Shown here: piece after piece, positions 5,034-42,513 of the stretch
Layout of the letters: each line of letters begins with the position of its first letter
Position numbering within the stretch: position 1 is the stretch's first letter
NCBI GenBank assembly: GCA_019638515.1
Contig: JAHBTS010000002.1
Coordinates: 23,395-87,394 of the forward strand
Direction: 5' to 3'
DNA length: 64,000 bases
Source: Chitinophagales bacterium
GTDB taxonomy: Bacteria; Bacteroidota; Bacteroidia; Chitinophagales; LD1
The notes under the pieces: model-generated
The model's database searches: none
What the model saw: only the letters and a program-made list of their open reading frames with translations
Told to the model about the DNA's origin: nothing
Translations under genes and position numbers: made by a program

Positions 5034-6083
5034 TTAATAGTATTTACAATTTTCAATTTCAAGAATAATATCTTTTCCGTATGCAGTGGCGGGAGTTTGG
5101 TAGCCTATTTTAAACTGGTTGTTATATACTTTTTTTGCAATAAGTGCAGTAGTGAGCGCTGTTAGATGATAGCCTTCGGGAGTTTGCAGCCGCATTTCAA
5201 TTCTATTTCCATTGGAGTTTTCTACACAGCCCCAAAAGTAACTTCTTCCTGCTTCGCGCTGTTGGGCATTGGGGCCGGGAGGGCGTTTGTTTACCTGCTG
5301 TTTTAAAAAGTTTTTTACAAAAGACAGTTTGAAGAGCCAACGGAGGTAGTTGGAGCGTTTCATTTGTGAAATAAGTGAAGCGGGGGCGCTCATATATACT
5401 TGAATATTAGGAATGCCGGTGCTGCTATATGCGGTAGAAATATCGCCCCAAGGAATTGTAACTGCTGTTGTTTTGAATGAGCCAAAATCAACTTCTCGCA
5501 CATGGTATGCGGCTGCTACCGATTGTAGTTTTCCGTATTGCCGTATGGTGCCGCCTTCTCCTAAATTTTCAACCATTGTTTTGGCGGTGCCTCTGCTAAA
5601 TCCGCCTTTTAGAGCTGCAAACGCCAATGATAGGTATTGTGCATCGGGCATTTTTTCTTTTAGTGCATTGGCAAGGCAATCGGATGGTACTACATCGAAC
5701 CCAACTCCGGGTAGCACCATAATACCAGCCTTTTGTGCTGCGGTATCTTGTGCTTTACAACCTTCAAAGACTTGGTATTCGCCTGTTATGTCTAAGTAGT
5801 GCGTTTGGGTTGCTATGCAGGCTTGCAACATTTTTTCATAGGTGTGAATAAATGGGCCTGCTGCATGAATTACTATTTTACAATTGGCAAGTGCACTTTT
5901 AATTGCTTCTACATCATGCAGTTGAAATGCAATGGTTTCTAAAGCGTATGTTTTACCTAACAGTTGCAGGACGTTGATATTTCTTCCTGCCAGCACAGGT
6001 TGTATGCCTTGCTTTAGTAATGTTTGGATAATTAAATTTCCGGTATAGCCGGTAGCGCCATAAAGCAAAACTTTCTCTTTCAT
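5034..6083 (-). CDS. saccharopine dehydrogenase family NAD(P)-binding protein
   Basis: 349 aa. N-terminal LLYGATGYTGNLI dinucleotide-binding motif and an overall saccharopine dehydrogenase-like layout. Confidence 0.65.
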   Translation of the reverse strand: MKEKVLLYGATGYTGNLIIQTLLKQGIQPVLAGRNINVLQLLGKTYALETIAFQLHDVEAIKSALANCKIVIHAAGPFIHTYEKMLQACIATQTHYLDITGEYQVFEGCKAQDTAAQKAGIMVLPGVGFDVVPSDCLANALKEKMPDAQYLSLAFAALKGGFSRGTAKTMVENLGEGGTIRQYGKLQSVAAAYHVREVDFGSFKTTAVTIPWGDISTAYSSTGIPNIQVYMSAPASLISQMKRSNYLRWLFKLSFVKNFLKQQVNKRPPGPNAQQREAGRSYFWGCVENSNGNRIEMRLQTPEGYHLTALTTALIAKKVYNNQFKIGYQTPATAYGKDIILEIENCKYY

Positions 6084-6577
6084 TTTTTTTGAATGGATTC
6101 TAATAGTGGCAACTCTAAATTACGAACAAAACTTTCTTCTAGCGAAATTAGAGTTTCTGTGCGGTTAATGCCTTCTATCTTTTGTATTTTATCGTGCAGC
6201 ACTGTTCTTAGGTGCTGTGTATCACGGCAATGAATTTTAATAAATAAACTATAGTTTCCCGTGGTGTAGTGGCAACTTACAATTTCAGGAATCTTTTTCA
6301 ATTCTTTTATTACGCCATCGTACATATCGCTTTTGTTGAGGTACACACCAATAAACGCAGTGATGTCGTATCCCATTTTGGGTAAATCTATTTGCACCTG
6401 AGGAGCCCTTGCGATGCCGTATTCCGTAAGTTTTTTCATGCGTACATGCACCGTGCCTGGCGAAACATAAAGTTCTTTAGCTATTTCGGTAAAGGGTGTA
6501 AAGGCATCTTTTTGTAAGATATTTAATAGTTGAATATCGGTATTATCAATTTCGTAATCTACATGTCGTTTTTCCAT
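6080..6577 (-). CDS. Lrp/AsnC family transcriptional regulator
   Basis: 165 aa. N-terminal HTH (DIQLLNILQKDAFTPFTEIAKELYVSPGTVHVRMKKL) plus a C-terminal RAM/AsnC domain. 4-nt overlap with the downstream gene. Confidence 0.85.
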   Translation of the reverse strand: MEKRHVDYEIDNTDIQLLNILQKDAFTPFTEIAKELYVSPGTVHVRMKKLTEYGIARAPQVQIDLPKMGYDITAFIGVYLNKSDMYDGVIKELKKIPEIVSCHYTTGNYSLFIKIHCRDTQHLRTVLHDKIQKIEGINRTETLISLEESFVRNLELPLLESIQKK

Positions 6578-6654
6578 CTTTAATTATTGTTTTTATTTTA
6601 AAATGCTATTTATTTTGAATGAAATGTAATAATTTGTTGATTTTGAAACATTTC

Positions 6655-6685
6655 TTGCAAAGAAACGAATATGATTTTATATTTG
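6655..6685 (+). promoter_or_regulatory. Bacteroidota-type promoter (TTG-N20-TATATTTG) for the tRNA-like RNA
   Basis: TTG at 6655..6657 and TATATTTG at 6678..6685, 17 nt before the RNA 5' end. Architecture is nearly identical to the tRNA-Asp promoter (TCTTGCA...TATATTTGC in both). Confidence 0.5.
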
Positions 6686-6702
6686 CAACACGTTCTTAAA
6701 AT

Positions 6703-6843
6703 TGTTGGGTGATGGAATTAGGCAAACATGCCCACCGGTCTCGTGGGTGAGGAAAAAGGTATAAACCCGGCAAGCGTTGAAGTTGCTTCAACGCTTGCTT
6801 TGGCTAACCGCCTCTTGCAGGTTCGAGTCCTGCTCCAACAGCA
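6703..6843 (+). ncRNA. atypical tRNA-like RNA (~141 nt): class-II tRNA scaffold, non-canonical anticodon loop, ~68-nt variable arm
   Basis: Hand fold:
- acceptor TGTTGGG / TCCAACA (7 bp)
- U8
- D arm ATG-GAATTAGGCAAA-CAT, containing GG
- anticodon arm CCCAC-CGGTCTC-GTGGG
- long rod including a perfect 13-bp hairpin GCAAGCGTTGAAG-TTG-CTTCAACGCTTGC (6770..6798)
- T arm GCAGG-TTCGAGT-CCTGC
- discriminator G, followed by a T-run
It has its own promoter. The anticodon loop lacks U33 and a purine at position 37. Confidence 0.5.
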
Positions 6844-7070
6844 ATTTTTTTACTATGGATATGGATAAAGTTTGGTTCTTATTGTTAGCAAACAGTTTTT
6901 TAACTGCATGGTGGTTTCGTAAAATAATAATACGCATAGTGCTGTTTCGCGCTGTGTTTCCGCAAAAGGTATAACTCCGGAAAGATTTTCGTTCGTTCTG
7001 TCCGTTTTGTTAGGCTGTGAAATTTAAATGTTTCGCAGCCTTTATTATTTTCGGCTGGCTTGAAATAAAA

Positions 7071-7463
7071 ATGGCTAAGAAGAAAAAGTTGCCGCCTTCC
7101 GGTGCGCTAAATACTAATGTTTTAAAGATGTTTATGATGGGTGCTGCCAATCCGGCAGGCAGTAATAAAACCTTTTCGCATAGTGCCGATGTTGTAGATT
7201 TGCATATTGAACAAAGCGCTGTAAAATATAAAAAGATTGATGCCACAGAGGCATTGATATTGCAATTGGAGCAGGTTGAAAAGAGTATTGATGCCGCTAT
7301 TGCATCGGGCAAAATGGAAATACGCGTAATACACGGTTTAGGAAAAGGTAAGCTGAAGGAAGAAATTCATAAAATGCTCAGGAAACATCCGCACGTTTGC
7401 AGTTTTGAAAATGATTACACACCAAGCTATGGTTGGGGCAGTACGCTCATAAAATTTTACTGA
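7071..7463 (+). CDS. Smr/MutS2-type small domain protein
   Basis: Track ORF 7017..7463, with MAKKKKLPPSG (ATG 7071) as the likely start. The C-terminal Smr motif IRVIHGLGKGKLKEEIHKML is present. Confidence 0.7.
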   Translation: MAKKKKLPPSGALNTNVLKMFMMGAANPAGSNKTFSHSADVVDLHIEQSAVKYKKIDATEALILQLEQVEKSIDAAIASGKMEIRVIHGLGKGKLKEEIHKMLRKHPHVCSFENDYTPSYGWGSTLIKFY

Positions 7464-24677: not shown

Positions 24678-24758
24678 GTATATATGCTTGCTTTTTTATT
24701 GCTGAAAAAATAAGGGCAAGCGAAAATAAGTGTTCGCAAACAATTTTTCACGAAACTC

Positions 24759-24788
24759 TTGCATTGAATTTTTAAGCTATTATATTTG
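24759..24788 (+). promoter_or_regulatory. Bacteroidota-type promoter (TTG-N19-TATATTTG) for tRNA-Asp
   Basis: TTG at 24759..24761 and TATATTTG at 24781..24788, 18 nt before the mature tRNA 5' end. Confidence 0.55.
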
Positions 24789-24806
24789 CGCTCCCGTTCG
24801 CGGAAA

Positions 24807-24880
24807 GGATCGGTAGTTCAGTTGGTTAGAATGCTGCCCTGTCACGGCAGAGGTCGCGGGTTCGAGTCCCGTCCGGTCCG
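24807..24880 (+). tRNA. tRNA-Asp (anticodon GTC)
   Basis: GGATCGGTAGTTCAGTTGGTTAGAATGCTGCCCTGTCACGGCAGAGGTCGCGGGTTCGAGTCCCGTCCGGTCCG folds as a cloverleaf. Anticodon loop is CT-GTC-AC. CCA is not encoded. Confidence 0.93.
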
Positions 24881-24883
24881 CAG

Positions 24884-34582: not shown

Positions 34583-36019
34583 TTACGATATACTCATTTG
34601 TATTTTCTTTTGTATATCGCTCACGCTTTCTCTAAATTCTTGGTCGGTATCAATTAAGTTTTGTACCGCTTGGCAAGAGTGGATTACGGTTGAGTGGTCG
34701 CGCCCGCCAAAATGTTTCCCAATTACTTTTAATGAGTTTTTAGTATAGTTTTTAGCAAGGAACATAGAGAGTTGGCGTGCTTGCACTACCATGCGCTTGC
34801 GGGTTTTTTCTTTTAAAGTTTCTACGGGTACATTAAAGTATTCGCAAACTGTTTTTTGAATGTAGTCTATACTTACTTCGCGACTCATTGTTTTTACAAA
34901 GTTCTTAATTATCTTTTTAGCTAACTCCACATCCACATCTTTTTTATTGAGCGATGCTTGTGCTAGTAATGAAATTAAGGCAGCTTCTAATTCGCGCACG
35001 TTTGTATTGATGTTGTATGCTACAAACTCTACTACTTCGCGCGGCAGTTCAATGCCATCGGCATACATTTTCTTTTCTAAAATTCCAATGCGGGTTTCAA
35101 AATCCGGCACTTGCAAATCGGCACTTAATCCCCATTTAAAGCGAGAAAGTAATCTTTCTTCTATTCCTTCTAAATCGCGTGGAGAGCGATCGGTAGTGAG
35201 TACCAATTGCTTGCCATTTTGGTGAAGGTGATTAAATATATGGAAGAAAATATCTTGTGTTTTTTCTTTGTTGCTGAAGAACTGAATATCGTCCACCAGC
35301 AATACATCTATAAGCTGATAGAAGTGTATAAAATCGTTTACCGAATTATTCTTTACAGCATCGAAAAACTGGTTGGTGAATTTTTCGCTGGAAACATATA
35401 GCACGGTTTTATTGGGGAATAGTTGTTTTACTTCGTTGCCAATTGCTTGTGCCAAGTGTGTTTTACCTAAACCAACGCTACCGTAAATTACCAATGGGTT
35501 AAAAGCGGTGCCACCGGGCTTTTGCGAAACGGCATAGCCGGCACTGCGTGCTAAGCGGTTGCAATCGCCTTCTACAAAATTATCGAAGTTGTAATTGGCG
35601 TTTAATTGAGGGTCTATATTTATTTTCTTTAAACCCGGAATTACAAACGGGTTTTTAATGTTGCTTCCTTGTAGCGTTAATGGAAAACTTGTTTCGGGAT
35701 TAGAGGCGTTGCCTGAATTGAAATTAGGATAATCTACGGTGCTGGGAGTAGAGCCATTGTGTTCTACCACGATGCGGTATTCTAAGCGGGCTTCGTTTCC
35801 TAATTCGCGTTTAATGGTTTTGCGTAATAGCGAAACATAATGTTCTTCGAGCCATTCGTAAAAAAATTGCGAAGGCACTTGGATGGTTAACACAGCCGCT
35901 TTTAATTCAACAGGTTTAATTGGTTCAAACCATGTTTTGAAACTTTGAGCACTTACATTGTCTCTGATAATTTCTAAGCAAGCACTCCATACAGATGCGG
36001 CCGATTTTTCCTTTACCAT
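34583..36019 (-). CDS. dnaA: chromosomal replication initiator protein DnaA
   Basis: The track ORF extends to 36133. The ATG at 36019 gives the DnaA-like N-terminus MVKEKSAASVWSACLEIIRDNV. AAA+ Walker A GSVGLGKTHL, box VII, and a C-terminal DNA-binding domain (HSTV...) are present. Confidence 0.92.
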   Translation of the reverse strand: MVKEKSAASVWSACLEIIRDNVSAQSFKTWFEPIKPVELKAAVLTIQVPSQFFYEWLEEHYVSLLRKTIKRELGNEARLEYRIVVEHNGSTPSTVDYPNFNSGNASNPETSFPLTLQGSNIKNPFVIPGLKKINIDPQLNANYNFDNFVEGDCNRLARSAGYAVSQKPGGTAFNPLVIYGSVGLGKTHLAQAIGNEVKQLFPNKTVLYVSSEKFTNQFFDAVKNNSVNDFIHFYQLIDVLLVDDIQFFSNKEKTQDIFFHIFNHLHQNGKQLVLTTDRSPRDLEGIEERLLSRFKWGLSADLQVPDFETRIGILEKKMYADGIELPREVVEFVAYNINTNVRELEAALISLLAQASLNKKDVDVELAKKIIKNFVKTMSREVSIDYIQKTVCEYFNVPVETLKEKTRKRMVVQARQLSMFLAKNYTKNSLKVIGKHFGGRDHSTVIHSCQAVQNLIDTDQEFRESVSDIQKKIQMSIS

Positions 36020-36227
36020 GTTTGAGTCCGTTTTTATGTTAGATGAATTGAATTTTGAACAATTAGCAGTTGAGGGTGTGAAAATGTACATTACGGTGTG
36101 AAAAAAAAATTTTTTTCCACTTGATTTTTTCAAGAAAAATACGTCTCAATTTTTCTTAAGAAAAACTTTGTTTCGTGCAACTGTGGAAATAGAATTTTTT
36201 ATTTCTCAATTGTTGGTAAAAAGCAAA

Positions 36228-37363: not shown

Positions 37364-40300
37364 ATGACTACAATACTAGGATTAGATTTAGGAACCAACT
37401 CCATTGGTTGGGCGCTCATTCAGCAAGATTTTGAAAACAAACAGGGGAAAATTCTTGGAATGGGAAGTCGGATTATTCCGATGAGTACTGATGATAAAGA
37501 TGAATTTACATCAGGCAATACGATTTCTAAAAATCAGAAACGAACATCCAAACGCACTCAACGAAAAGGTTATGACCGCTATCAGTTAAGGCGAAAATCA
37601 TTAACAAACCTTTTGCTCAAAAACGAAATGTTCAATGATGCTCTTTTCAAATTACAACCATTGGAATTGTGGGGCTTGCGAGCAAAAGCTGTAAATGAAA
37701 AAATTGAGTTAAAAGAACTCGGTCGTGTTTTGTACCATCTTAACCAAAAGCGCGGATACAAAAGCAGTAGAAGCGATGCGAATTTGGATAAAAAAGATAC
37801 AGAGTATGTAGCCGAAGTGAAAAGCCGCCACCAAGAAATAAAAGAACAAGGCATTACTATCGGACAAAAGTTTTTTGCTGAATTACAGAAAGACCAATAC
37901 TACCGTGTGAAACAGCAAGTGTTTCCGCGCGAAGCTTACATCGAAGAATTTGAAGCGATTTGCAAGCAACAGCAAAAACATTATCCACAAATAATTACCG
38001 ATGAATTTATCGCTCAACTGCGCGATGAAATCATCTACTATCAACGCAAATTGAAGTCACAAAAAGGTTTGGTAAACATTTGCGAATTTGAGGGCTTCTC
38101 TACTAAAAATAAAGAAGGTAAGGATGCTTTCGTTGGTCCTAAAGTTGCACCCAAAAGCTCGCCACTTTTCCAGATTTGTAAGATTTGGGAAGGCATTAAC
38201 ACCATCTCACTAAAAAACAAATCGGGCGAAACTTTTGAAATTTCAATAGAGCAAAAACAAGAATTGTTTAAACATCTTGACAACCATGAAAAGCTAACTT
38301 CAACTGACCTACTTAAGATTTTAAATCTGAAAAAAAATGATGGTTGGTATACAAATAAGCAAATTGAACGAGGCATACAAGGTAATATCACCAAGACACA
38401 ATTTTTAAAGTACTTGCCACAAGACAATGAGTTACTTACATTCAACTTAACTGTAAAAAACAGCGATAAAGAGACCTATTTGGTAGACCGCAAAACAGGC
38501 GATGTAAAGGGAAGTAAGCAACACTTAATAATTGATGCAGATATTGAACAGCAACCGCTTTACCAATTGTGGCACACCATTTATTCGATTGCTGATGTAG
38601 AAGAATGTGTGAATGTGCTTATTAAAAAATTCAACCTCGACCGAGAAATAGCTGAAAAATTGGCAAACATAGATTTTACAAAATACGCTTTCGGTAATAA
38701 GTCTTCAAAAGCAATACGTAAAATTTTGCCTTACTTAATGCAAGGCGATGTTTACAGTGATGCTTGTTCGTATGCGGGTTACAATCATTCAAACTCGCTT
38801 ACGAAAGACGAAAATATAAAACGTATTTTGTTAGACAGCATTCCAAATCTTCCGAAAAATAGCTTGCGCCAACCTGTGGTGGAGAAAATTCTCAACCAAA
38901 TGATAAACGTAGTAAACGCAATTATTGAAAAACACGGAAAACCTGATGAAATTAGAATTGAATTAGCACGCGATCTGAAACAAAATAAAGAAGAACGAAA
39001 CAAGACTTTCACGGACTTAAATAAGAGAGAACGCGAGAATGAAACTATTAGGAAACGACTTACTGATGAATACAAATTACGTGCGACAAGAAATAACGTA
39101 ATTAAATGGCGTTTGTTTCATGAAATCAATAATGAAGAAAGCAAATTGAATGCTTTTTGTGTTTATTGTGGAAAACCATTCGGAATTACTGATGCTTTAA
39201 GTGGTAACAATGTGGACGTAGAGCATATTATTCCTAAATCATTGTTGTTTGATGATTCGCAAAGCAACAAAACGCTTAGTCACAGAAGTTGTAACGAAGC
39301 AAAAGGCAATAAAACGGCTTATGATTTTATGTCGTCAAAAACTAGCGATGAATTAAATACCTATATCGAGCGAGTAGATAACCTTTTCAAAAACAAACTA
39401 ATCAACAAGGCGAAACGCGATAGGTTATTAATGCCCGAAGCAAAAATTCCAAAAGATTTTATTGACCGCCAGCTACGCGAAACACAATATATAGCCCGAA
39501 AATCAAAAGAAATTTTGGAGCAAGTGTGCACAAACGTTTGGAGTACGAGCGGAACAGTAACGGAATACTTGCGCAGATTGTGGGGGTGGGACGATGTGCT
39601 AATGAATTTGCAACTGCCCAAATATCGCGAATTAGGACTTATCGAATGGAAAGAATGGGAAACAAATGACGGTCAAAAGCACAAGCAGGAAGTAATCAAA
39701 GATTGGAGCAAGCGCGATGATCACCGCCACCACGCAGTTGATGCACTCGTAATTGCATGCACACAACAGGGCTTTATACAGCGCATCAATAATTTAAGTT
39801 CACAAGGCAATCGTGATGAAATGTATGCTGAAGTTGGTACCACAAGAAAAGGCTCTCTATTAGAAAACTATATCGTTAAACACCGTCCATTTACAACCAA
39901 AGAAGTAGAAAACAAAGCCGCTGAAATTTTAATTTCATTCAAAGCAGGAAAAAAGGTTGCTTCATTCGGCAAACGAAAAATAAAGAAAGACGGTAAAAAA
40001 CAAGTAGTCCAAACAGGAATTATTGTGCCGCGTGGTGCATTAAGCGAAGAAAGTGTTTATGGAAAAATTAAATCGCTTGACAAAAACAAGCCTCTAAAGT
40101 ATTTGTTTGAAAATCCTGATTTAATACTAAAAGGTTATATTAAGAAGTTAGTAAAGGAGCGATTAGCAAAACATGAAAACGATTCAAAAAAAGCTATTGC
40201 ATCATTAAAGAAAGAGACGATATATCTTGATGAAGAGAATAAAAAAGTGCTGGAATATGCCACTTGCTACAAAGAAGAATACGTAATTAAATATCCTCTT

Positions 40301-41035
40301 GAAACGATTAAGGCGAAAGATGTAGAATATATTGTTGATGAAAAAGTAAAAGCCGTTATAAAAGCTCGTTTAGAACAATTCGGGAACAAGGAAAAAGAAG
40401 CGTTTAAAACACCTTTATTTTTAAACGAGGAAAAACAAATTCCAATTAAAACAGTTCGAATCTTTAGAGGACTTTCATCTATTGTTCCGGTAAATAAAGA
40501 TGGATTGGGTTTTGTAAAACCCGGCAACAATCATCACATTGCTTTCTATGTTGATGAAAATGGAAAGAAAATAGAACACATTTGTACTTTCTGGCACGCA
40601 GTGGAACGTAAAAAATATGACCTGCCTGTTATCATCAAAAACCCTAACGAACTTTGGGATAAAATTCTGTTGCTGAAAGATGAATATACACAGGACTTTT
40701 TAGACAAACTTCCAAAGCATAATTGGACCTTTGTAGAAAGTTTACAGCAAAATGAAATGTTTGTTTTGGGGTTGAATGAGGAAGAAATACAACATGCTCT
40801 TTCAACCAATAATAAACGACTTTTAAATCAGCATTTGTATCGAGTGCAAAAAATATCCTCTAATGAATATGTATTTAGACATCATTTAGAAACCTCTGTT
40901 GCCAAAGATGCTAGCAAAGACGTAGAAAAAGCTAAGCAGGATTCAAAACGATACTACAATATTAAGAGTATAGGCTCATTTGAAAAACTAAATCCAAGAA
41001 AAGTTAGAGTTAGTAACCTAGGAGAAGTTGTATAA
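37364..41035 (+). CDS. cas9: Cas9, type II-C (1223 aa)
   Basis: - RuvC-I: ILGLDLGTNSIGWAL (D8)
- Arg-rich bridge helix: KRTSKRTQRKGYDRYQLRRK
- RuvC-II: IRIELARD
- HNH: DVEHIIPKS...SNKTLSHRSCNEAKGNKT
- RuvC-III: DHRHHAVDALVIA
Followed by cas1 and cas2 only, with no csn2 or cas4. Confidence 0.95.
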   Translation: MTTILGLDLGTNSIGWALIQQDFENKQGKILGMGSRIIPMSTDDKDEFTSGNTISKNQKRTSKRTQRKGYDRYQLRRKSLTNLLLKNEMFNDALFKLQPLELWGLRAKAVNEKIELKELGRVLYHLNQKRGYKSSRSDANLDKKDTEYVAEVKSRHQEIKEQGITIGQKFFAELQKDQYYRVKQQVFPREAYIEEFEAICKQQQKHYPQIITDEFIAQLRDEIIYYQRKLKSQKGLVNICEFEGFSTKNKEGKDAFVGPKVAPKSSPLFQICKIWEGINTISLKNKSGETFEISIEQKQELFKHLDNHEKLTSTDLLKILNLKKNDGWYTNKQIERGIQGNITKTQFLKYLPQDNELLTFNLTVKNSDKETYLVDRKTGDVKGSKQHLIIDADIEQQPLYQLWHTIYSIADVEECVNVLIKKFNLDREIAEKLANIDFTKYAFGNKSSKAIRKILPYLMQGDVYSDACSYAGYNHSNSLTKDENIKRILLDSIPNLPKNSLRQPVVEKILNQMINVVNAIIEKHGKPDEIRIELARDLKQNKEERNKTFTDLNKRERENETIRKRLTDEYKLRATRNNVIKWRLFHEINNEESKLNAFCVYCGKPFGITDALSGNNVDVEHIIPKSLLFDDSQSNKTLSHRSCNEAKGNKTAYDFMSSKTSDELNTYIERVDNLFKNKLINKAKRDRLLMPEAKIPKDFIDRQLRETQYIARKSKEILEQVCTNVWSTSGTVTEYLRRLWGWDDVLMNLQLPKYRELGLIEWKEWETNDGQKHKQEVIKDWSKRDDHRHHAVDALVIACTQQGFIQRINNLSSQGNRDEMYAEVGTTRKGSLLENYIVKHRPFTTKEVENKAAEILISFKAGKKVASFGKRKIKKDGKKQVVQTGIIVPRGALSEESVYGKIKSLDKNKPLKYLFENPDLILKGYIKKLVKERLAKHENDSKKAIASLKKETIYLDEENKKVLEYATCYKEEYVIKYPLETIKAKDVEYIVDEKVKAVIKARLEQFGNKEKEAFKTPLFLNEEKQIPIKTVRIFRGLSSIVPVNKDGLGFVKPGNNHHIAFYVDENGKKIEHICTFWHAVERKKYDLPVIIKNPNELWDKILLLKDEYTQDFLDKLPKHNWTFVESLQQNEMFVLGLNEEEIQHALSTNNKRLLNQHLYRVQKISSNEYVFRHHLETSVAKDASKDVEKAKQDSKRYYNIKSIGSFEKLNPRKVRVSNLGEVV

Positions 41036-41175
41036 GTATATATAAACTATTTCCAAATAGATTAGGCAATATTTCTAAAGTACAAGACTAATGCACCAAC
41101 CTAATATTATACTATTCCCAACATTATAGCATACTAACTAAAACTCTTTATTTTTTACTAAAGTTAAAAGCACAG

Positions 41176-41210
41176 TACCACATTCAAGGGGTTGAACCTT
41201 GAATGTGGTA
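41176..41210 (+). other. perfect 14-bp stem-loop in the cas9-cas1 intergenic region
   Basis: TACCACATTCAAGG-GGTTGAA-CCTTGAATGTGGTA, followed by AATAATAAATTTT (a weak U-tract). It may be the cas9 terminator or attenuator. Confidence 0.6.
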
Positions 41211-41239
41211 AATAATAAATTTTAGAACCCAATAAAATC

Positions 41240-42172
41240 ATGATAAAACGCACCATTTATTTTGGGAATCCCGTTTATTTGAGTTTACGAAATGCTCAAC
41301 TTCAAATTCGCTTACCGGAAGTTGAAAACAACGATACCCTGCCGGAATTGTTTAAAAAAAATGCTGTTACTACTATTCCGGTAGAAGATATTGGCATTGT
41401 GGTATTGGATCACAAACAAGTAACTATTACCCAAGCCTTAATGGAGGCATTGCTTCAAAATAATGCTGTGGTTATTACTTGCGACAGTACTCACCACCCC
41501 ACAGGTTTACTAATGCCGTTGAGCGGCAATACCATACAGAGCGAAAGATTTAAGGCACAGTTGGCTGCCAGCGAACCGTTAAAAAAGCAGCTGTGGGCAC
41601 AAACAGTTTCTCAGAAAATAAAAAATCAATATGCCGTTTTATGCAAGCAAGGTGTTGATGCCAATTATCTTACCACGCTATATAAAAGCGTAAAAAGTGG
41701 CGATTCCGATAATTGCGAGGCTTCGGCAGCAGCCTACTATTGGCAACGTGTATTTCCATCTATTCCAAATTTCAAGCGGGCTAGGGAAGGTACACCACCC
41801 AACCACTACCTTAATTACGGATATGCAATTTTAAGAGCCACCATGGCAAGAAGCATTGTGGCAGCGGGTTTATTGCCCACACTCGGTATTCATCATAGCA
41901 ACCGCTATAATGCTTATTGCTTAGCCGATGACCTTATGGAACCTTATCGTCCGTATATTGATGAAATGGTTTGCCACATTGTAAAAACATCTGAAACGGC
42001 AGCAGAACTTTCAAAAGAAATGAAGGCCTATTTCTTAAAAGTACCTGCCATAGATGTAATGCTGGATGGCGAAAAGAGTCCTTTAATGAATGCCACACAG
42101 CGCACAGCCGTAAGTTTGGTAAAATGCTTTAATGGCGAACAAAGAAAAATGCTTTATCCCGAACTAATATGA
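41240..42172 (+). CDS. cas1: Cas1 (type II)
   Basis: 310 aa. Cas1-like throughout (LNYGYAILRA, PTLGIHH...N.Y.L..DLMEPYRP). 4-nt ATGA overlap with cas2. Confidence 0.93.
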   Translation: MIKRTIYFGNPVYLSLRNAQLQIRLPEVENNDTLPELFKKNAVTTIPVEDIGIVVLDHKQVTITQALMEALLQNNAVVITCDSTHHPTGLLMPLSGNTIQSERFKAQLAASEPLKKQLWAQTVSQKIKNQYAVLCKQGVDANYLTTLYKSVKSGDSDNCEASAAAYYWQRVFPSIPNFKRAREGTPPNHYLNYGYAILRATMARSIVAAGLLPTLGIHHSNRYNAYCLADDLMEPYRPYIDEMVCHIVKTSETAAELSKEMKAYFLKVPAIDVMLDGEKSPLMNATQRTAVSLVKCFNGEQRKMLYPELI

Positions 42173-42513
42173 AAGTAAATACAGATAGACTAAATGCATA
42201 TCGCGTTATGTGGACCCTTGTAATGTACGACCTGCCAACCGAAACCAAGAAAGAGCGCAAAGCAGCAGCCACCTTTCGGAAAGAACTGTTGAATGATGGT
42301 TTTAGTATGTTTCAATTTAGTATGTATGTAAGGCATAGTGCCAGCTCTGAAAATGCAGAAGTGCATAAGCGCAGAGTAAAAGCAGCACTACCTGAATTAG
42401 GTAAGGTAGGTATTTTGCAAATTACCGATAAACAATTTGCACAAATGGAAATTTATTACGGAGCTAAGCCTCAACAATTGCCCCAAGTAGCACAACAATT
42501 AGAAATGTTTTGA
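42169..42513 (+). CDS. cas2: Cas2 (type II)
   Basis: 114 aa. Position and sequence (VMYDLPTETKKERKAAATFRKEL...GFSMFQFSMYVR) are typical of type II Cas2. Confidence 0.9.
   Translation: MKVNTDRLNAYRVMWTLVMYDLPTETKKERKAAATFRKELLNDGFSMFQFSMYVRHSASSENAEVHKRRVKAALPELGKVGILQITDKQFAQMEIYYGAKPQQLPQVAQQLEMF

What the first reader, a model, noticed from the sequence alone, without database searches (positions are those of the whole stretch)
6655..6850. tRNA-like RNA with a perfect tRNA scaffold but a non-decoding anticodon loop and a ~68-nt rod-like variable arm
Seen in sequence: 6703..6843 folds by hand into the following elements.
- 7-bp acceptor (U1-A72)
- U8
- a class-II-like D arm with GG
- a 5-bp anticodon stem with the 7-nt loop CGGUCUC
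- a long irregular helix closed by GAGG/CCUC, which includes a perfect 13-bp hairpin (6770..6798)
- a canonical T arm (GCAGG-UUCGAGU-CCUGC)
- discriminator G, followed by a T-run

Its promoter (TCTTGCA-N-TATATTTGC) is almost a copy of the tRNA-Asp promoter in this window.

Established knowledge: U33 and a purine at position 37 are near-universal in decoding tRNAs. Class II tRNAs have variable arms of roughly 13-23 nt, not about 68.

Inference: this may be a non-canonical tRNA or a tRNA mimic, for example with a non-ribosomal aminoacyl-donor, regulatory or enzyme-scaffold role. It could also be an unusual pseudogene that is still promoter-equipped.

Side note: an 'AAAAGGTATAAC.CCGG.AAG' stretch of the variable arm recurs about 210 nt downstream (around 6964..6985).
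Basis: partly seen in the sequence, partly recalled or inferred. Interest (0 to 1): 0.6.

Follow-up and report, generated by a model that had tools for sequence, protein, structure and literature searches.

The report
AsnC-linked giant-arm tRNA-like RNA family
The odd tRNA-like gene is real: it belongs to a widespread, apparently undescribed family of Bacteroidota small RNAs that keep a full tRNA scaffold and an aspartate-type anticodon loop, carry a huge variable arm, and usually sit back-to-back with an AsnC-type amino-acid regulator, which suggests a tRNA working off the ribosome.

Summary
Window 6703-6841 folds as a 7/3/5/5 cloverleaf with a 66-nt variable arm, its own tRNA-type promoter and a T-run.

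ARAGORN and Rfam 15 find nothing there. It is still not a one-off or a pseudogene: I collected 181 distinct homologues (107-204 nt, variable arm 35-132 nt) from Chitinophagales, Saprospiraceae, Cytophagales and Sphingobacteriales genomes and from metagenomes.

- **Structure.** The cloverleaf is supported by heavy covariation: 99.5% of cells paired, 12 pairs with compensatory changes.
- **Origin.** The body looks derived from class II tRNA-Leu.
- **Invariant positions.** U1-A72, G2-C71, G73, C74 and loop positions U35, C36, C38 are invariant. G34 and U37 are near-invariant. U33 is free to vary and is G in this window.
- **Identity.** This matches most of the bacterial AspRS identity set, plus the U1-A72 pair that GatCAB requires.
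- **Context.** An AsnC-like regulator lies divergently upstream, about 110-200 nt away, in 73 of 138 evaluable loci. No other neighbour is conserved.

Best reading, inferred and about 0.4: an AsnC-controlled tRNA-like RNA that is processed like a tRNA, is probably charged with Asp, and is used off the ribosome. The boldest version makes it a GatCAB scaffold for asparagine synthesis. Function is untested.

The parts
6653..6685 (+). Bacteroidota-type promoter: TCTTGCA (-33 TTG at 6655-6657) and the -7 box TATATTTG (6678-6685).
   Evidence: Sequence and promoter scan hit 6655-6683. The same TCTTGCA / TTATATTTGC / CGTTC layout precedes tRNA-Asp at 24757-24799. A TAnnTTTG box lies within 60 nt upstream in 37 of 94 family members.
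6691..6702 (+). Short 5' leader carrying the CGTTCTT motif. It is presumed to be removed by RNase P (inferred).
   Evidence: GTTCT(T) recurs just after the promoter or just before U1 in many family members. CGTTC also follows the tRNA-Asp promoter.
6703..6841 (+). Predicted mature tRNA-like RNA, U1 to discriminator G73 (139 nt). C74 is encoded at 6842; the rest of CCA is not encoded.
   Evidence: CM R1 hit at 6701-6842, 122 bits, E = 1e-31. Cloverleaf covariation. U1-A72, G2-C71, G73 and C74 are invariant in the family.
6731..6747 (+). Anticodon-like arm: stem CCCAC/GUGGG and loop C32 G33 G34 U35 C36 U37 C38 (6736-6742).
   Evidence: Pair 30:40 covaries (U.G, C-G, U-A, G-C, A-U). In the loop, U35, C36 and C38 are 181/181, G34 96%, U37 94.5% and U33 81%.
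6749..6814 (+). Giant variable arm (66 nt). From base to tip: base helix GAGG/CCUC, a 4-nt bulge, the inner helix NGG/CCG, the conserved internal loop (G/U)AUAAA / CUAA, and a distal rod ending in the perfect 13-bp hairpin 6770-6798.
   Evidence: Base and inner helices covary: GG/CC changes to AG/CU in 23 cells. The distal hairpin changes by compensatory substitutions in close relatives. Arm length is 35-132 nt across the family. Inverted repeat.
6817..6833 (+). Canonical T arm GCAGG-UUCGAGU-CCUGC.
   Evidence: Sequence. Pair 50:64 shows six pair types across the family.
6845..6851 (+). T-run after the gene. Many homologues instead have a hairpin terminator within about 10 nt of C74.
6080..6577 (-). 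AsnC-like Lrp/AsnC-family regulator, divergent from the RNA. Its start codon is 126 nt from U1.
   Evidence: NCBIfam AsnC NF008384: E = 1e-46, 158 bits, below the equivalog cut-off of 227. Lrp scores only 53 bits. It is divergently upstream of the RNA in 73 of 174 loci, of which 138 have enough upstream sequence to judge.
6855..6974 (+). 39-aa hydrophobic small ORF between the RNA and the terminator. It is restricted to this clade, and it is uncertain whether it belongs to the same transcript.
   Evidence: Counterparts with the motif IRI.(I/T)F.A occur in L008, L012 and L013. It is absent in L015 and L016.
6990..7051 (+). Conserved motif CGTTCGTTCTGTCCGTTTTGT (6990-7010) followed by an intrinsic terminator (hairpin 7012-7041 plus T-run). 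It may be the 3' end of a read-through transcript or a separate small RNA.
   Evidence: Terminator scan. The motif is unique in the window. It is conserved in the clade and in L018, where the hairpin has a different sequence.

Best explanation
**What it is (high confidence, about 0.95).** It is a stand-alone gene for a member of a large, apparently undescribed Bacteroidota family of class II tRNA-like small RNAs.
- The body (D arm, variable-to-T linker 'GU', CUAAC element of the arm) looks derived from tRNA-Leu.
- The acceptor end has been refitted to U1-A72, G2-C71, G73.
- The anticodon loop has been refitted to Y-N-G-U-C-U-C.
- The variable arm has expanded to 35-132 nt.

**How it most likely works (inferred, about 0.4).**
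1. It is transcribed from a tRNA-type promoter whose activity is set by the divergently encoded AsnC-type amino-acid regulator.
2. It is matured like a tRNA: RNase P at U1, 3' trimming, CCA completion after the encoded C74.
3. It is recognised by aspartyl-tRNA synthetase through G34, U35, C36, C38, G73 and G2-C71, and charged with aspartate.
4. It is kept off the ribosome by U37, the unconstrained position 33 and the bulky arm.
5. It therefore serves as an aminoacyl carrier or sensor in Asp/Asn metabolism rather than as a decoder.

**Status of the steps.** Shown here: structure, conservation, invariant positions, gene autonomy, AsnC linkage. Inferred: processing, charging, exclusion from translation, regulation by AsnC.
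For: **Conservation and covariation.**
- Close relatives keep the RNA far better than its flanks, and the long hairpin changes by compensatory substitutions.
- Pattern scans plus the covariance model give 181 distinct members.
- On 74 diverse members, 99.5% of cells are paired. Twelve pairs have changes on both sides, in 163 cells. Only 0-1 of 500 shuffles reach each of the five measures. Slid controls give 51-62% paired.

**tRNA kinship.**
- Model R1 scores ordinary class II tRNAs at 33-60 bits over its full length.
- The best-scoring ordinary tRNAs are tRNA-Leu, which share the D arm UGAUGAAAUUGGCAGACAU and the GU linker.

**Invariant positions not imposed by the search patterns.**
- U1-A72 179/179, G2-C71 177/179, G73 178/179, C74 178/178.
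- The loop was unconstrained in the D-arm-selected set: U35, C36 and C38 are 84/84 there.

**Match to the bacterial Asp identity set.** The set is G73, G10, G34, U35, C36, C38, plus conserved G1-C72 and G2-C71 (PMC9976931). Six of these eight are met; the misses are A10 and U1-A72.

**Signs of relaxed decoding constraints.**
- U37 in 94.5% and non-U33 in 19% of members, including this window.
- A normal tRNA-Asp gene exists in the same window.

**Autonomous gene.** It has its own promoter, and terminator hairpins follow C74 in many members.

**AsnC linkage.**
- An AsnC-like regulator is divergent upstream in 73 loci. The next most frequent neighbour occurs in 10.
- The linkage holds while the regulator diverges from 87% to 36% identity, and in cultured Pedobacter.
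- The regulator is far closer to AsnC than to Lrp.
Against: - There is no expression, processing or charging data of any kind.
- G10 is A10 in 88% of members. Bacterial tRNA-Asp has a strictly conserved G1-C72 that helps seat the 3' end in AspRS, whereas this RNA has U1-A72.
- Class II synthetases face the variable region, so a 35-132 nt arm could clash with AspRS.
- U33 is present in 81% of members and three have the exact tRNA-Asp loop CUGUCAC, so decoding is not excluded.
- No defined AsnC operator could be found in 70 intergenic regions: a palindrome test gave 2 of 70 against 0.5 expected.
- In Saprospiraceae, Lewinella, Algoriphagus and Cyclobacterium loci the RNA, often in tandem copies, is not next to AsnC.
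- No aspS, gat or asn gene lies near the RNA.
Confidence: 0.4

Rival explanations
1. It is an uncharged tRNA mimic. The RNA binds and titrates or scaffolds a tRNA-binding protein (AspRS, GatCAB, a modification enzyme, an anticodon nuclease or an unknown partner) without ever being aminoacylated. The variable arm would provide a protein-binding platform.
For: - The scaffold and loop are conserved, but position 33 is relaxed and position 37 is U.
- The proximal arm has a conserved internal loop, GAUAAA/CUAA.
- Chitinophagaceae and Saprospiraceae members share a conserved distal module, GCAUAGAGCCG..GGGUUGACCAC..UUUGUGCUA, which suggests a specific partner.
- Precedents from my own knowledge: YrlA, and the tRNA-like operators of thrS.
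Against: - Strict invariance of U1-A72, G2-C71, G73 and C74 at a free acceptor end is what an enzyme acting on the 3' end would impose. A pure decoy needs it less.
- Most of the arm is hypervariable in length and sequence, 35-132 nt.
Confidence: 0.3
2. It is a genuine decoding tRNA-Asp isoacceptor that tolerates an expansion segment in its variable arm and is switched on by AsnC under particular conditions.
For: - Full cloverleaf, 7-nt loop, GUC invariant, U33 in 81% of members, canonical T arm, three members with A37.
- tRNA-type promoter.
Against: - U37 in 94.5% of members and G, C or A at position 33 in 19%, including this window.
- U1-A72 where bacterial tRNA-Asp is G1-C72.
- Arm of up to 132 nt.
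- A normal tRNA-Asp is present in the same window.
- Neither ARAGORN nor the Rfam tRNA model accepts it.
Confidence: 0.12
3. It is charged by another synthetase that reads the long arm or acceptor end (SerRS, as for allo-tRNAs and tRNA-Sec) and carries serine for a non-canonical use.
For: G73, G2-C71 and a large variable region are part of the bacterial Ser identity set. From my own knowledge, changing A73 to G converts human tRNA-Leu towards serine identity.
Against: - Other Ser determinants are missing: C72 is A72, and C11-G24 is U11-A24 in about 90% of members.
- The arm is attached as in tRNA-Leu, with 1 nt on the 5' side and GU on the 3' side, not as in tRNA-Ser.
- SerRS ignores the anticodon, so this rival does not explain the invariant GUCUC loop.
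Confidence: 0.08
4. It is a decaying tRNA pseudogene, or merely an integration target left by mobile elements.
For: A phage-type integrase lies just 3' of the RNA in Pedobacter aquae (L275). The window also has a local 21-nt duplication.
Against: - 181 distinct members across four orders share invariant functional positions and compensatory changes.
- Promoter and terminators are conserved.
- No family member was found in viral contigs.
Confidence: 0.02

Closest known systems
Bacterial class II tRNA-Leu
   Same: - Nearly identical D arm (UGAUGAAAUUGGCAGACAU).
- 3-bp D stem.
- One nucleotide before the variable arm and 'GU' after it.
- CUAAC element in the arm, canonical T arm, and C74 encoded after the discriminator.
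- These are the best-scoring ordinary tRNAs with the family model, at 56-60 bits.
   Different: - G73 instead of the Leu determinant A73.
- U1-A72 instead of G1-C72.
- No Leu anticodon.
- Arm of 35-132 nt instead of about 15.
- Family members score 83-135 bits, well separated from tRNA-Leu.
tRNA-Asp (GUC) and its AspRS identity set
   Same: G34, U35, C36, C38, G73 and G2-C71. In 40% of members the loop CUGUCUC differs from tRNA-Asp's CUGUCAC at position 37 only.
   Different: A10 instead of G10, U1-A72 instead of G1-C72, U37, a class II body and the giant arm.
tRNA-Asn and tRNA-Gln as GatCAB substrates (transamidosome pathway)
   Same: U1-A72, the pair shown to promote amidation by bacterial GatCAB (PMC1635274), together with G73.
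   Different: The anticodon is Asp-type GUC, not GUU or YUG. The D loop is large and Leu-type, and an extra D-loop base (U20A) is an antideterminant in tRNA-Asp.
allo-tRNAs and tRNA-Sec (non-canonical long-arm tRNAs)
   Same: Long variable arm, G73, and an anticodon uncoupled from the identity of the body.
   Different: Those have 8/4, 9/3 or 8/5 acceptor/T geometry (my own knowledge); this family is 7/5. Their arms are about 20 nt or less. Rfam's tRNA-Sec model gives no hit.
YrlA / bacterial Y RNAs and tmRNA (known bacterial tRNA mimics)
   Same: tRNA-like D/T elbow in a non-decoding RNA.
   Different: - From my own knowledge, YrlA has no free acceptor end and is encoded next to rsr, while tmRNA lacks an anticodon arm and carries a tag ORF.
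- Here the 5' and 3' ends form a normal acceptor stem and all four arms are present.
- ARAGORN finds no tmRNA.
- Rfam finds no match to any of its families, neither at gathering score nor at E<=10.
- Neither rsr nor smpB shows up as a recurrent neighbour.
Non-proteinogenic tRNA-Gly of staphylococci (cell-wall donor tRNAs)
   Same: Concept of a tRNA dedicated to a non-ribosomal aminoacyl transfer, with features that disfavour translation (my own knowledge).
   Different: Those are ordinary-sized class I tRNAs detected by standard tools. There is no giant arm and no regulator linkage.

Membership tests
Canonical elongator tRNA (Rfam RF00005; ARAGORN) | Cloverleaf with a 7-bp acceptor, D, anticodon and T arms, plus U8, G18G19 and the T-loop UUCGANU | tested here: met
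   Sequence. 26 pairs are 99.5% paired with covariation across 74 members.
Canonical elongator tRNA (Rfam RF00005; ARAGORN) | Recognised by tRNA detectors or models | tested here: not met
   ARAGORN makes no call in the window or in 79 family loci, apart from one partial miscall, tRNA-Lys in L105. Rfam gives no hit at gathering or at E<=10.
Canonical elongator tRNA (Rfam RF00005; ARAGORN) | U33 and a purine at position 37 in the anticodon loop | tested here: not met
   The window has G33 and U37. In the family, U33 is 81% and U37 is 94.5%, with a purine at 37 in 4%.
Canonical elongator tRNA (Rfam RF00005; ARAGORN) | Variable region of 4-5 nt (class I) or about 10-23 nt (class II) | tested here: not met
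   66 nt in the window; 35-132 nt in the family, median 73.
tRNA-Leu | Discriminator A73 and a Leu anticodon | tested here: not met
   G73 in 178/179 members; loop GUC. The body resemblance is met.
tRNA-Asp (substrate of bacterial AspRS) | Identity set G73, G10, G34, U35, C36, C38, with G1-C72 and G2-C71 (PMC9976931) | tested here: inconclusive
   Six of eight are present. A10 and U1-A72 deviate. Actual charging cannot be tested with these tools.
GatCAB substrate tRNA (tRNA-Asn/Gln type) | U1-A72 present; no G1-C72; no supernumerary D-loop base (PMC1635274) | tested here: inconclusive
   U1-A72 is 179/179. However, the D loop is an 11-14 nt Leu-type loop whose effect on GatCAB is unknown.
tRNA-Ser / allo-tRNA / tRNA-Sec | Ser set G73, C72, G2-C71, C11-G24 and a large variable region; or 8/5, 8/4 or 9/3 geometry | tested here: not met
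   A72, U11-A24 in about 90% of members, and 7/5 geometry.
tmRNA | tRNA-like ends plus an internal tag reading frame; no anticodon arm | tested here: not met
   ARAGORN's tmRNA search is negative. A full anticodon arm is present.
YrlA / Y RNA | Ends form a Ro-binding stem, there is no free acceptor end, and the gene lies next to rsr | tested here: not met
   The topology differs, with a free acceptor end. No Rfam family matched at gathering score or at E<=10. No recurrent neighbour other than AsnC; neighbours were not screened specifically for Rsr.
AsnC regulon member (like asnA in E. coli) | Divergent gene pair with an AsnC regulator; AsnC binding and asparagine-responsive transcription | tested here: inconclusive
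   The divergent pairing is met in 73 of 138 evaluable loci. The regulator is AsnC-like but below the equivalog cut-off. No operator motif was resolved. Regulation cannot be tested here.

The most novel reading that the evidence does not exclude
The RNA is a dedicated, translation-excluded scaffold for asparagine biosynthesis.

**Proposed pathway.**
1. The ordinary, discriminating AspRS charges it with Asp by reading GUC, C38 and G73.
2. GatCAB then amidates the Asp to Asn because of U1-A72.
3. AsnC switches the gene on when asparagine is scarce, which would make the RNA the functional counterpart of asnA in the E. coli asnC-asnA divergent pair.

**What it would explain.** It would account for why many Chitinophagales, Cytophagales and Sphingobacteriales keep GatCAB although they have both AsnRS and GlnRS. 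Some of them, such as Pedobacter and Solitalea, have no AsnA or AsnB at all (Table S1 of PMC4206432).

**Phyletic fit.** The lineages in which I found the RNA are of the gatCAB-positive type. Flavobacteriaceae and Bacteroidales are gatCAB-negative in that table and yielded no named family member.

**Caveat.** This correlation is confounded by phylogeny and is not a genome-by-genome test.
Probability: 0.2. Interest if true: 0.92.

Novelty: new variant of a known kind. Interest (0 to 1): 0.8.

Why it matters
- **A missing family.** It would add a widespread, strongly constrained tRNA-like RNA to the short list of bacterial tRNA mimics (tmRNA, YrlA). Current annotation misses it completely.
- **Unusual anatomy.** It is an intact, free-ended cloverleaf with an Asp-type anticodon loop. 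Its variable arm is up to six times longer than any known class II arm.
- **A testable link.** Its tight pairing with an AsnC-type regulator connects a tRNA-like molecule to amino-acid regulation.
- **An open question.** If it is charged and amidated, it would be the first tRNA-like cofactor devoted to making a free amino acid. It would also explain why GatCAB is retained in Bacteroidota that have both AsnRS and GlnRS.
- **Value even without that.** The family offers a natural example of how far a tRNA body tolerates expansion, and it is a new integration or processing landmark in these genomes.

Tried and rejected
- **Known RNA families.** Rfam at gathering score on the window and on 17 family loci, and at E<=10 on 6600-7100, gave nothing relevant. 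ARAGORN gave nothing.
- **Literature.** Searches for a described Bacteroidota tRNA-like or long-arm RNA found nothing. The held library is not exhaustive.
- **Phage origin.** The 3' pattern in viral contigs hit only ordinary class II tRNAs at 42-59 bits.
- **Second degenerate copy.** A tandem copy could have explained the 21-nt repeat, but the model finds only one copy in the window.
- **AsnC operator.** A simple TTGAAW..WTTCAA palindrome test was not enriched, at 2 of 70. Only A/T-rich recurring words were seen.
- **Other conserved neighbours.** TrmB (10 loci), Smr (7-8 loci) and the dNK/PALP genes are clade-specific, and no aspS, asnS, gat or asn gene is nearby.
- **Window gene content.** A Pfam scan of 30 ORFs found no Asp/Asn pathway gene.
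- **Eighth acceptor pair (-1:73).** Rejected, because -1 is C, U or A against G73.
- **SerRS, LeuRS or AsnRS as the charging enzyme.** Their identity sets fit worse than that of Asp.
Full report
**1.
- a 7-bp acceptor stem (U1-A72 to G7.U66), U8 and G9;
- a 3-bp D stem with a GG-containing loop;
- a 5-bp anticodon-like stem with the loop CGGUCUC (6736-6742);
- a long arm closed by GAGG/CCUC (6749-6814, 66 nt) that includes a perfect 13-bp hairpin (6770-6798);
- a canonical T arm (6817-6833), discriminator G (6841), C74 and a T-run.

The single sequence folds better than all 200 shuffles (z = -3.06). The gene has a Bacteroidota-type promoter (TTG at 6655-6657, TATATTTG at 6678-6685). That promoter shares TCTTGCA, TTATATTTGC and a following CGTTC with the tRNA-Asp gene at 24807-24881.

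**2. Standard tools do not see it.**
ARAGORN calls only tRNA-Asp in the window. Rfam 15 reports only that tRNA at gathering score. At E<=10 on 6600-7100 it reports nothing for the tRNA-like region except a chance 15.6-bit tpke11 match to the 13-bp hairpin, and no tRNA or tRNA-like family. Seventeen loci carrying homologues also give no Rfam hit. Five literature searches found no description. The library searched is incomplete, so 'undescribed' is provisional.

**3. It is a conserved gene, not an accident.**
- The neighbouring AsnC-like protein led to syntenic contigs from relatives with 80-88% protein identity. There the RNA is much better conserved than its flanks, and the long hairpin changes by paired substitutions, for example UUGAAG/CUUCAA to UUAAAG/CUUUAA.
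- More distant AsnC orthologues (72-75% identity) have lost synteny on the far side but still have the RNA upstream.
They include Chitinophaga (five species), Puia, Lacibacter, Flavihumibacter, Hydrotalea, Pedobacter, Algoriphagus, Cyclobacterium, Chryseotalea, Lewinella, and many Saprospiraceae and Chitinophagales MAGs.
- A second, independent scan of metagenomes used only a D-arm pattern and returned about 100 more.
- In total there are 181 distinct sequences, 107-204 nt from U1 to G73, with variable arms of 35-132 nt and a median of 73.
- None was found in viral contigs.
- No family-bearing record is named as Flavobacteriales or Bacteroidales. This is a sampling statement, not proof of absence.

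**4. The cloverleaf is supported by covariation.**
I counted pairs on 74 sequences thinned to 93% similarity or less.
- The 26 pairs of the hand-drawn structure are standard pairs in 99.5% of cells.
- Twelve pairs show changes on both sides, in 163 cells.
- Only 0 or 1 of 500 shuffles reach each of the five measures.
- Sliding the 3' partners drops pairing to 51-62%.
- Covarying pairs occur in the acceptor stem (pairs 3-7), D stem (10:25, 11:24), anticodon stem (30:40), T stem (50:64) and the base of the long arm.
- RNAalifold on 13 close relatives independently recovered the acceptor, anticodon, arm-base and T helices, plus a 3-bp inner arm helix.

Caveat: the search patterns fixed parts of the T stem and the CUAAC motif, so those positions say nothing.

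**5. Kinship with tRNAs.**
A covariance model of the family (R1) scores members at 83-135 bits. It scores ordinary class II tRNAs at 33-60 bits over the full model and class I tRNAs at 15-35 bits. The best ordinary matches are tRNA-Leu genes that share three features with the family:
- the D arm UGAUGAAAUUGGCAGACAU;
- the single nucleotide before the variable arm and the 'GU' after it;
- a GGCUAACCC-type arm.

The family therefore looks like a derivative of tRNA-Leu in which the arm loop was expanded. This is an inference from similarity.

**6. What distinguishes it.**
Positions not imposed by the searches are almost invariant:
- U1-A72 179/179, G2-C71 177/179, U3-A70 about 93%, G73 178/179, C74 178/178.
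- In the loop, U35, C36 and C38 are 181/181, G34 is 96% and U37 is 94.5%. Position 32 is C or U, and position 33 is U in only 81%.
- The window's clade has G33.

I compared these positions with published identity sets (PMC9976931).
- The best fit is aspartate, whose set is G73, G10, G34, U35, C36 and C38, with G1-C72 and G2-C71 conserved. Six of these eight are present; A10 and U1-A72 deviate.
- The Leu set fails on A73.
- The Asn set fails on U36 and A37.
- The Ser set fails on C72, on C11-G24 and on how the arm is attached.

U1-A72 is the pair shown to promote amidation by bacterial GatCAB, whereas G1-C72 and the extra D-loop base U20A of tRNA-Asp block it (PMC1635274). Genuine tRNA-Asp genes in these data have G1-C72, and tRNA-Asn and tRNA-Gln genes have U1-A72.

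**7. Gene organisation.**
- Many members have a TAnnTTTG box upstream, a GTTCT(T) leader motif and a hairpin terminator a few bases after C74.
- CCA is usually not encoded beyond C74, as in the normal tRNA genes here.
- Twenty-two of 174 loci hold two to five tandem copies with different arms. Lewinella sp. W8, for example, alternates 180-nt and 122-nt types.
- In Pedobacter aquae a tyrosine integrase lies immediately 3' of the RNA, as happens at tRNA genes.

**8. Genomic context.**
- I clustered all ORFs within 2.5 kb of the RNA in 174 loci. One neighbour stands out: an AsnC-like regulator, divergent and upstream, in 73 loci, of which 138 have enough upstream sequence to judge. The next most frequent neighbour (TrmB) occurs in 10.
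- The distance from the regulator's start codon to U1 is narrowly distributed, 110-205 nt.
- The pairing persists while the regulator diverges to 36-58% identity, in Chitinophagaceae, Sphingobacteriales and unclassified Bacteroidia.
- The regulator matches NCBIfam AsnC at 158 bits, below the 227-bit equivalog cut-off. It matches Lrp at only 53 bits.
- I could not define an operator motif.
- From established knowledge (not tested here): E. coli asnC is transcribed divergently from asnA, activates it, and the activation responds to asparagine.

**9. Mechanism, with its status.**
- Shown: a conserved, autonomous, tRNA-shaped gene with an invariant acceptor end and an invariant GUC-U-C loop, linked to an AsnC-type regulator.
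- Inferred: it is processed by the tRNA maturation machinery and charged by AspRS.
  - The pattern 'positions 34-38 fixed, 32-33 free' is what an anticodon-reading synthetase would impose.
  - It is not what the ribosome would impose.
- Inferred: it does not decode. U37, variable position 33, the giant hypervariable arm and the presence of a normal tRNA-Asp all point that way.
- Inferred: AsnC controls it.
- I put about 0.4 on this chain as a whole and about 0.95 on the identity of the object as a real tRNA-like RNA family.

**10. The boldest reading.**
- Table S1 of PMC4206432 lists gatCAB as present in Chitinophaga, Niastella, Pedobacter, Solitalea, Cytophaga, Cyclobacterium, Dyadobacter, Spirosoma, Runella, Leadbetterella, Marivirga and Haliscomenobacter.
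  - Several of these also have asnS and glnS.
  - Pedobacter and Solitalea have no asnA or asnB.
- The same table lists gatCAB as absent in Bacteroides, Barnesiella, Alistipes, Flavobacterium, Cellulophaga, Croceibacter, Aequorivita and Capnocytophaga.
- The RNA family appears in the first kind of lineage. An Asp-charged, U1-A72 RNA under AsnC control could therefore be a GatCAB substrate that makes asparagine off the ribosome.
- Limits of this reading:
  - It is circumstantial and phylogenetically confounded.
  - The large D loop may be an antideterminant.
  - No gat or asp gene is nearby.
- I give it about 0.2.

**11. Rivals.**
- Uncharged mimic or protein scaffold (0.3).
- True decoding tRNA-Asp with an expansion segment (0.12).
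- Serylated allo-tRNA-like molecule (0.08).
- Pseudogene or attachment site only (0.02, contradicted).

**12. The side note and the surroundings.**
- The 21-nt repeat (6754-6774 and 6964-6984) is real and unexpected by chance. It is confined to this strain, and no second RNA copy is detectable.
- A clade-specific 39-aa hydrophobic ORF (6855-6974) lies between the RNA and the Smr gene.
- It is followed by a conserved motif plus terminator (6990-7051). These may belong to a read-through transcript.

**13. Limits.**
- Sequences were found with patterns taken from the family itself.
- No whole genomes, expression data or biochemical data were available.

Noticed in passing
window 6855-6974 (+): A 39-aa hydrophobic small ORF (MDMDKVWFLLLANSFLTAWWFRKIIIRIVLFRAVFPQKV) lies between the tRNA-like RNA and the Smr gene. 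Counterparts sharing the motif IRI.(I/T)F.A occur in L008, L012 and L013; it is absent in L015 and L016. It could be a small membrane peptide or toxin.
   Followed up: partly
window 6990-7051 (+); also L012, L013, L015, L018: The conserved motif CGTTCGTTCTGTCCGTTTTGT is followed by an intrinsic terminator, just upstream of the Smr start codon. In L018 the motif is kept but the hairpin has a different sequence. It could be a small RNA, a 3' external spacer element or a leader.
   Followed up: partly
window 6754-6774 and 6964-6984: A direct 21-nt repeat (18 of 21 identical) of the proximal variable-arm sequence recurs at the stop codon of the small ORF. It is found only in this strain and its near-identical relatives, and is unexplained; it may be a remnant of a tandem duplication.
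   Followed up: yes
window 6691-6697 and 24795-24799; many family loci: A GTTCT(T)/CGTTC motif lies a few bases after the -7 promoter box, both in the tRNA-like genes and in the tRNA-Asp gene. It may be a start-site or leader signal of tRNA-type promoters in these bacteria.
   Followed up: partly
window 37364-42513: A 1223-aa protein is followed by Cas1 (41240-42172) and a 114-aa ORF. This is probably a type II CRISPR-Cas locus, and the gene-poor stretch at 42.5-46.6 kb may hold the array. DnaA is at 34583-36091.
   Followed up: no
L275 785-1975 (Pedobacter aquae CP043329.1): A phage-type integrase gene lies directly 3' of the tRNA-like RNA (2225-2339). In sister genomes, ParE or Fic genes occupy the same spot. 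This suggests the RNA gene serves as an integration hotspot, as tRNA genes do.
   Followed up: no
L021, L023, L030, L034, L049, L054, L066, L097 and others (distal variable arm): Many Chitinophagaceae and Saprospiraceae members share a conserved distal-arm module, GCAUAGAGCCG-[variable hairpin]-CGACCAGGGUUGACCACUA..UUUGUGCUA. Part of the 'variable' arm is therefore itself a structured, conserved domain.
   Followed up: no
L075, L089, L096, L105 (3' flank of the RNA): A sub-family with the acceptor stem CUGCAGG/CCUGCAG is followed by a conserved sequence, TCGCGAGTAGTAGTAGTCC...ATCGGTCCCCGG, of unknown meaning.
   Followed up: no
L107 1025-1147 (Capnocytophaga MAG): A different 123-nt tRNA-like sequence has an insertion of about 50 nt after a normal-looking 5' half. 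It scores only 32.5 bits with the family model, so it is not a member.
   Followed up: no
L064 7928-8000 (MAG labelled Citrobacter): A truncated family member sits on a 326-kb contig labelled Citrobacter. Mis-binning or mislabelling is more likely than true presence in Enterobacteriaceae.
   Followed up: no
L279 (Parapedobacter sp. DT-150): This AsnC orthologue (75% identity to the Pedobacter one) has a 394-nt upstream gap with no family RNA, so the RNA-AsnC pairing is not universal within Sphingobacteriales.
   Followed up: partly
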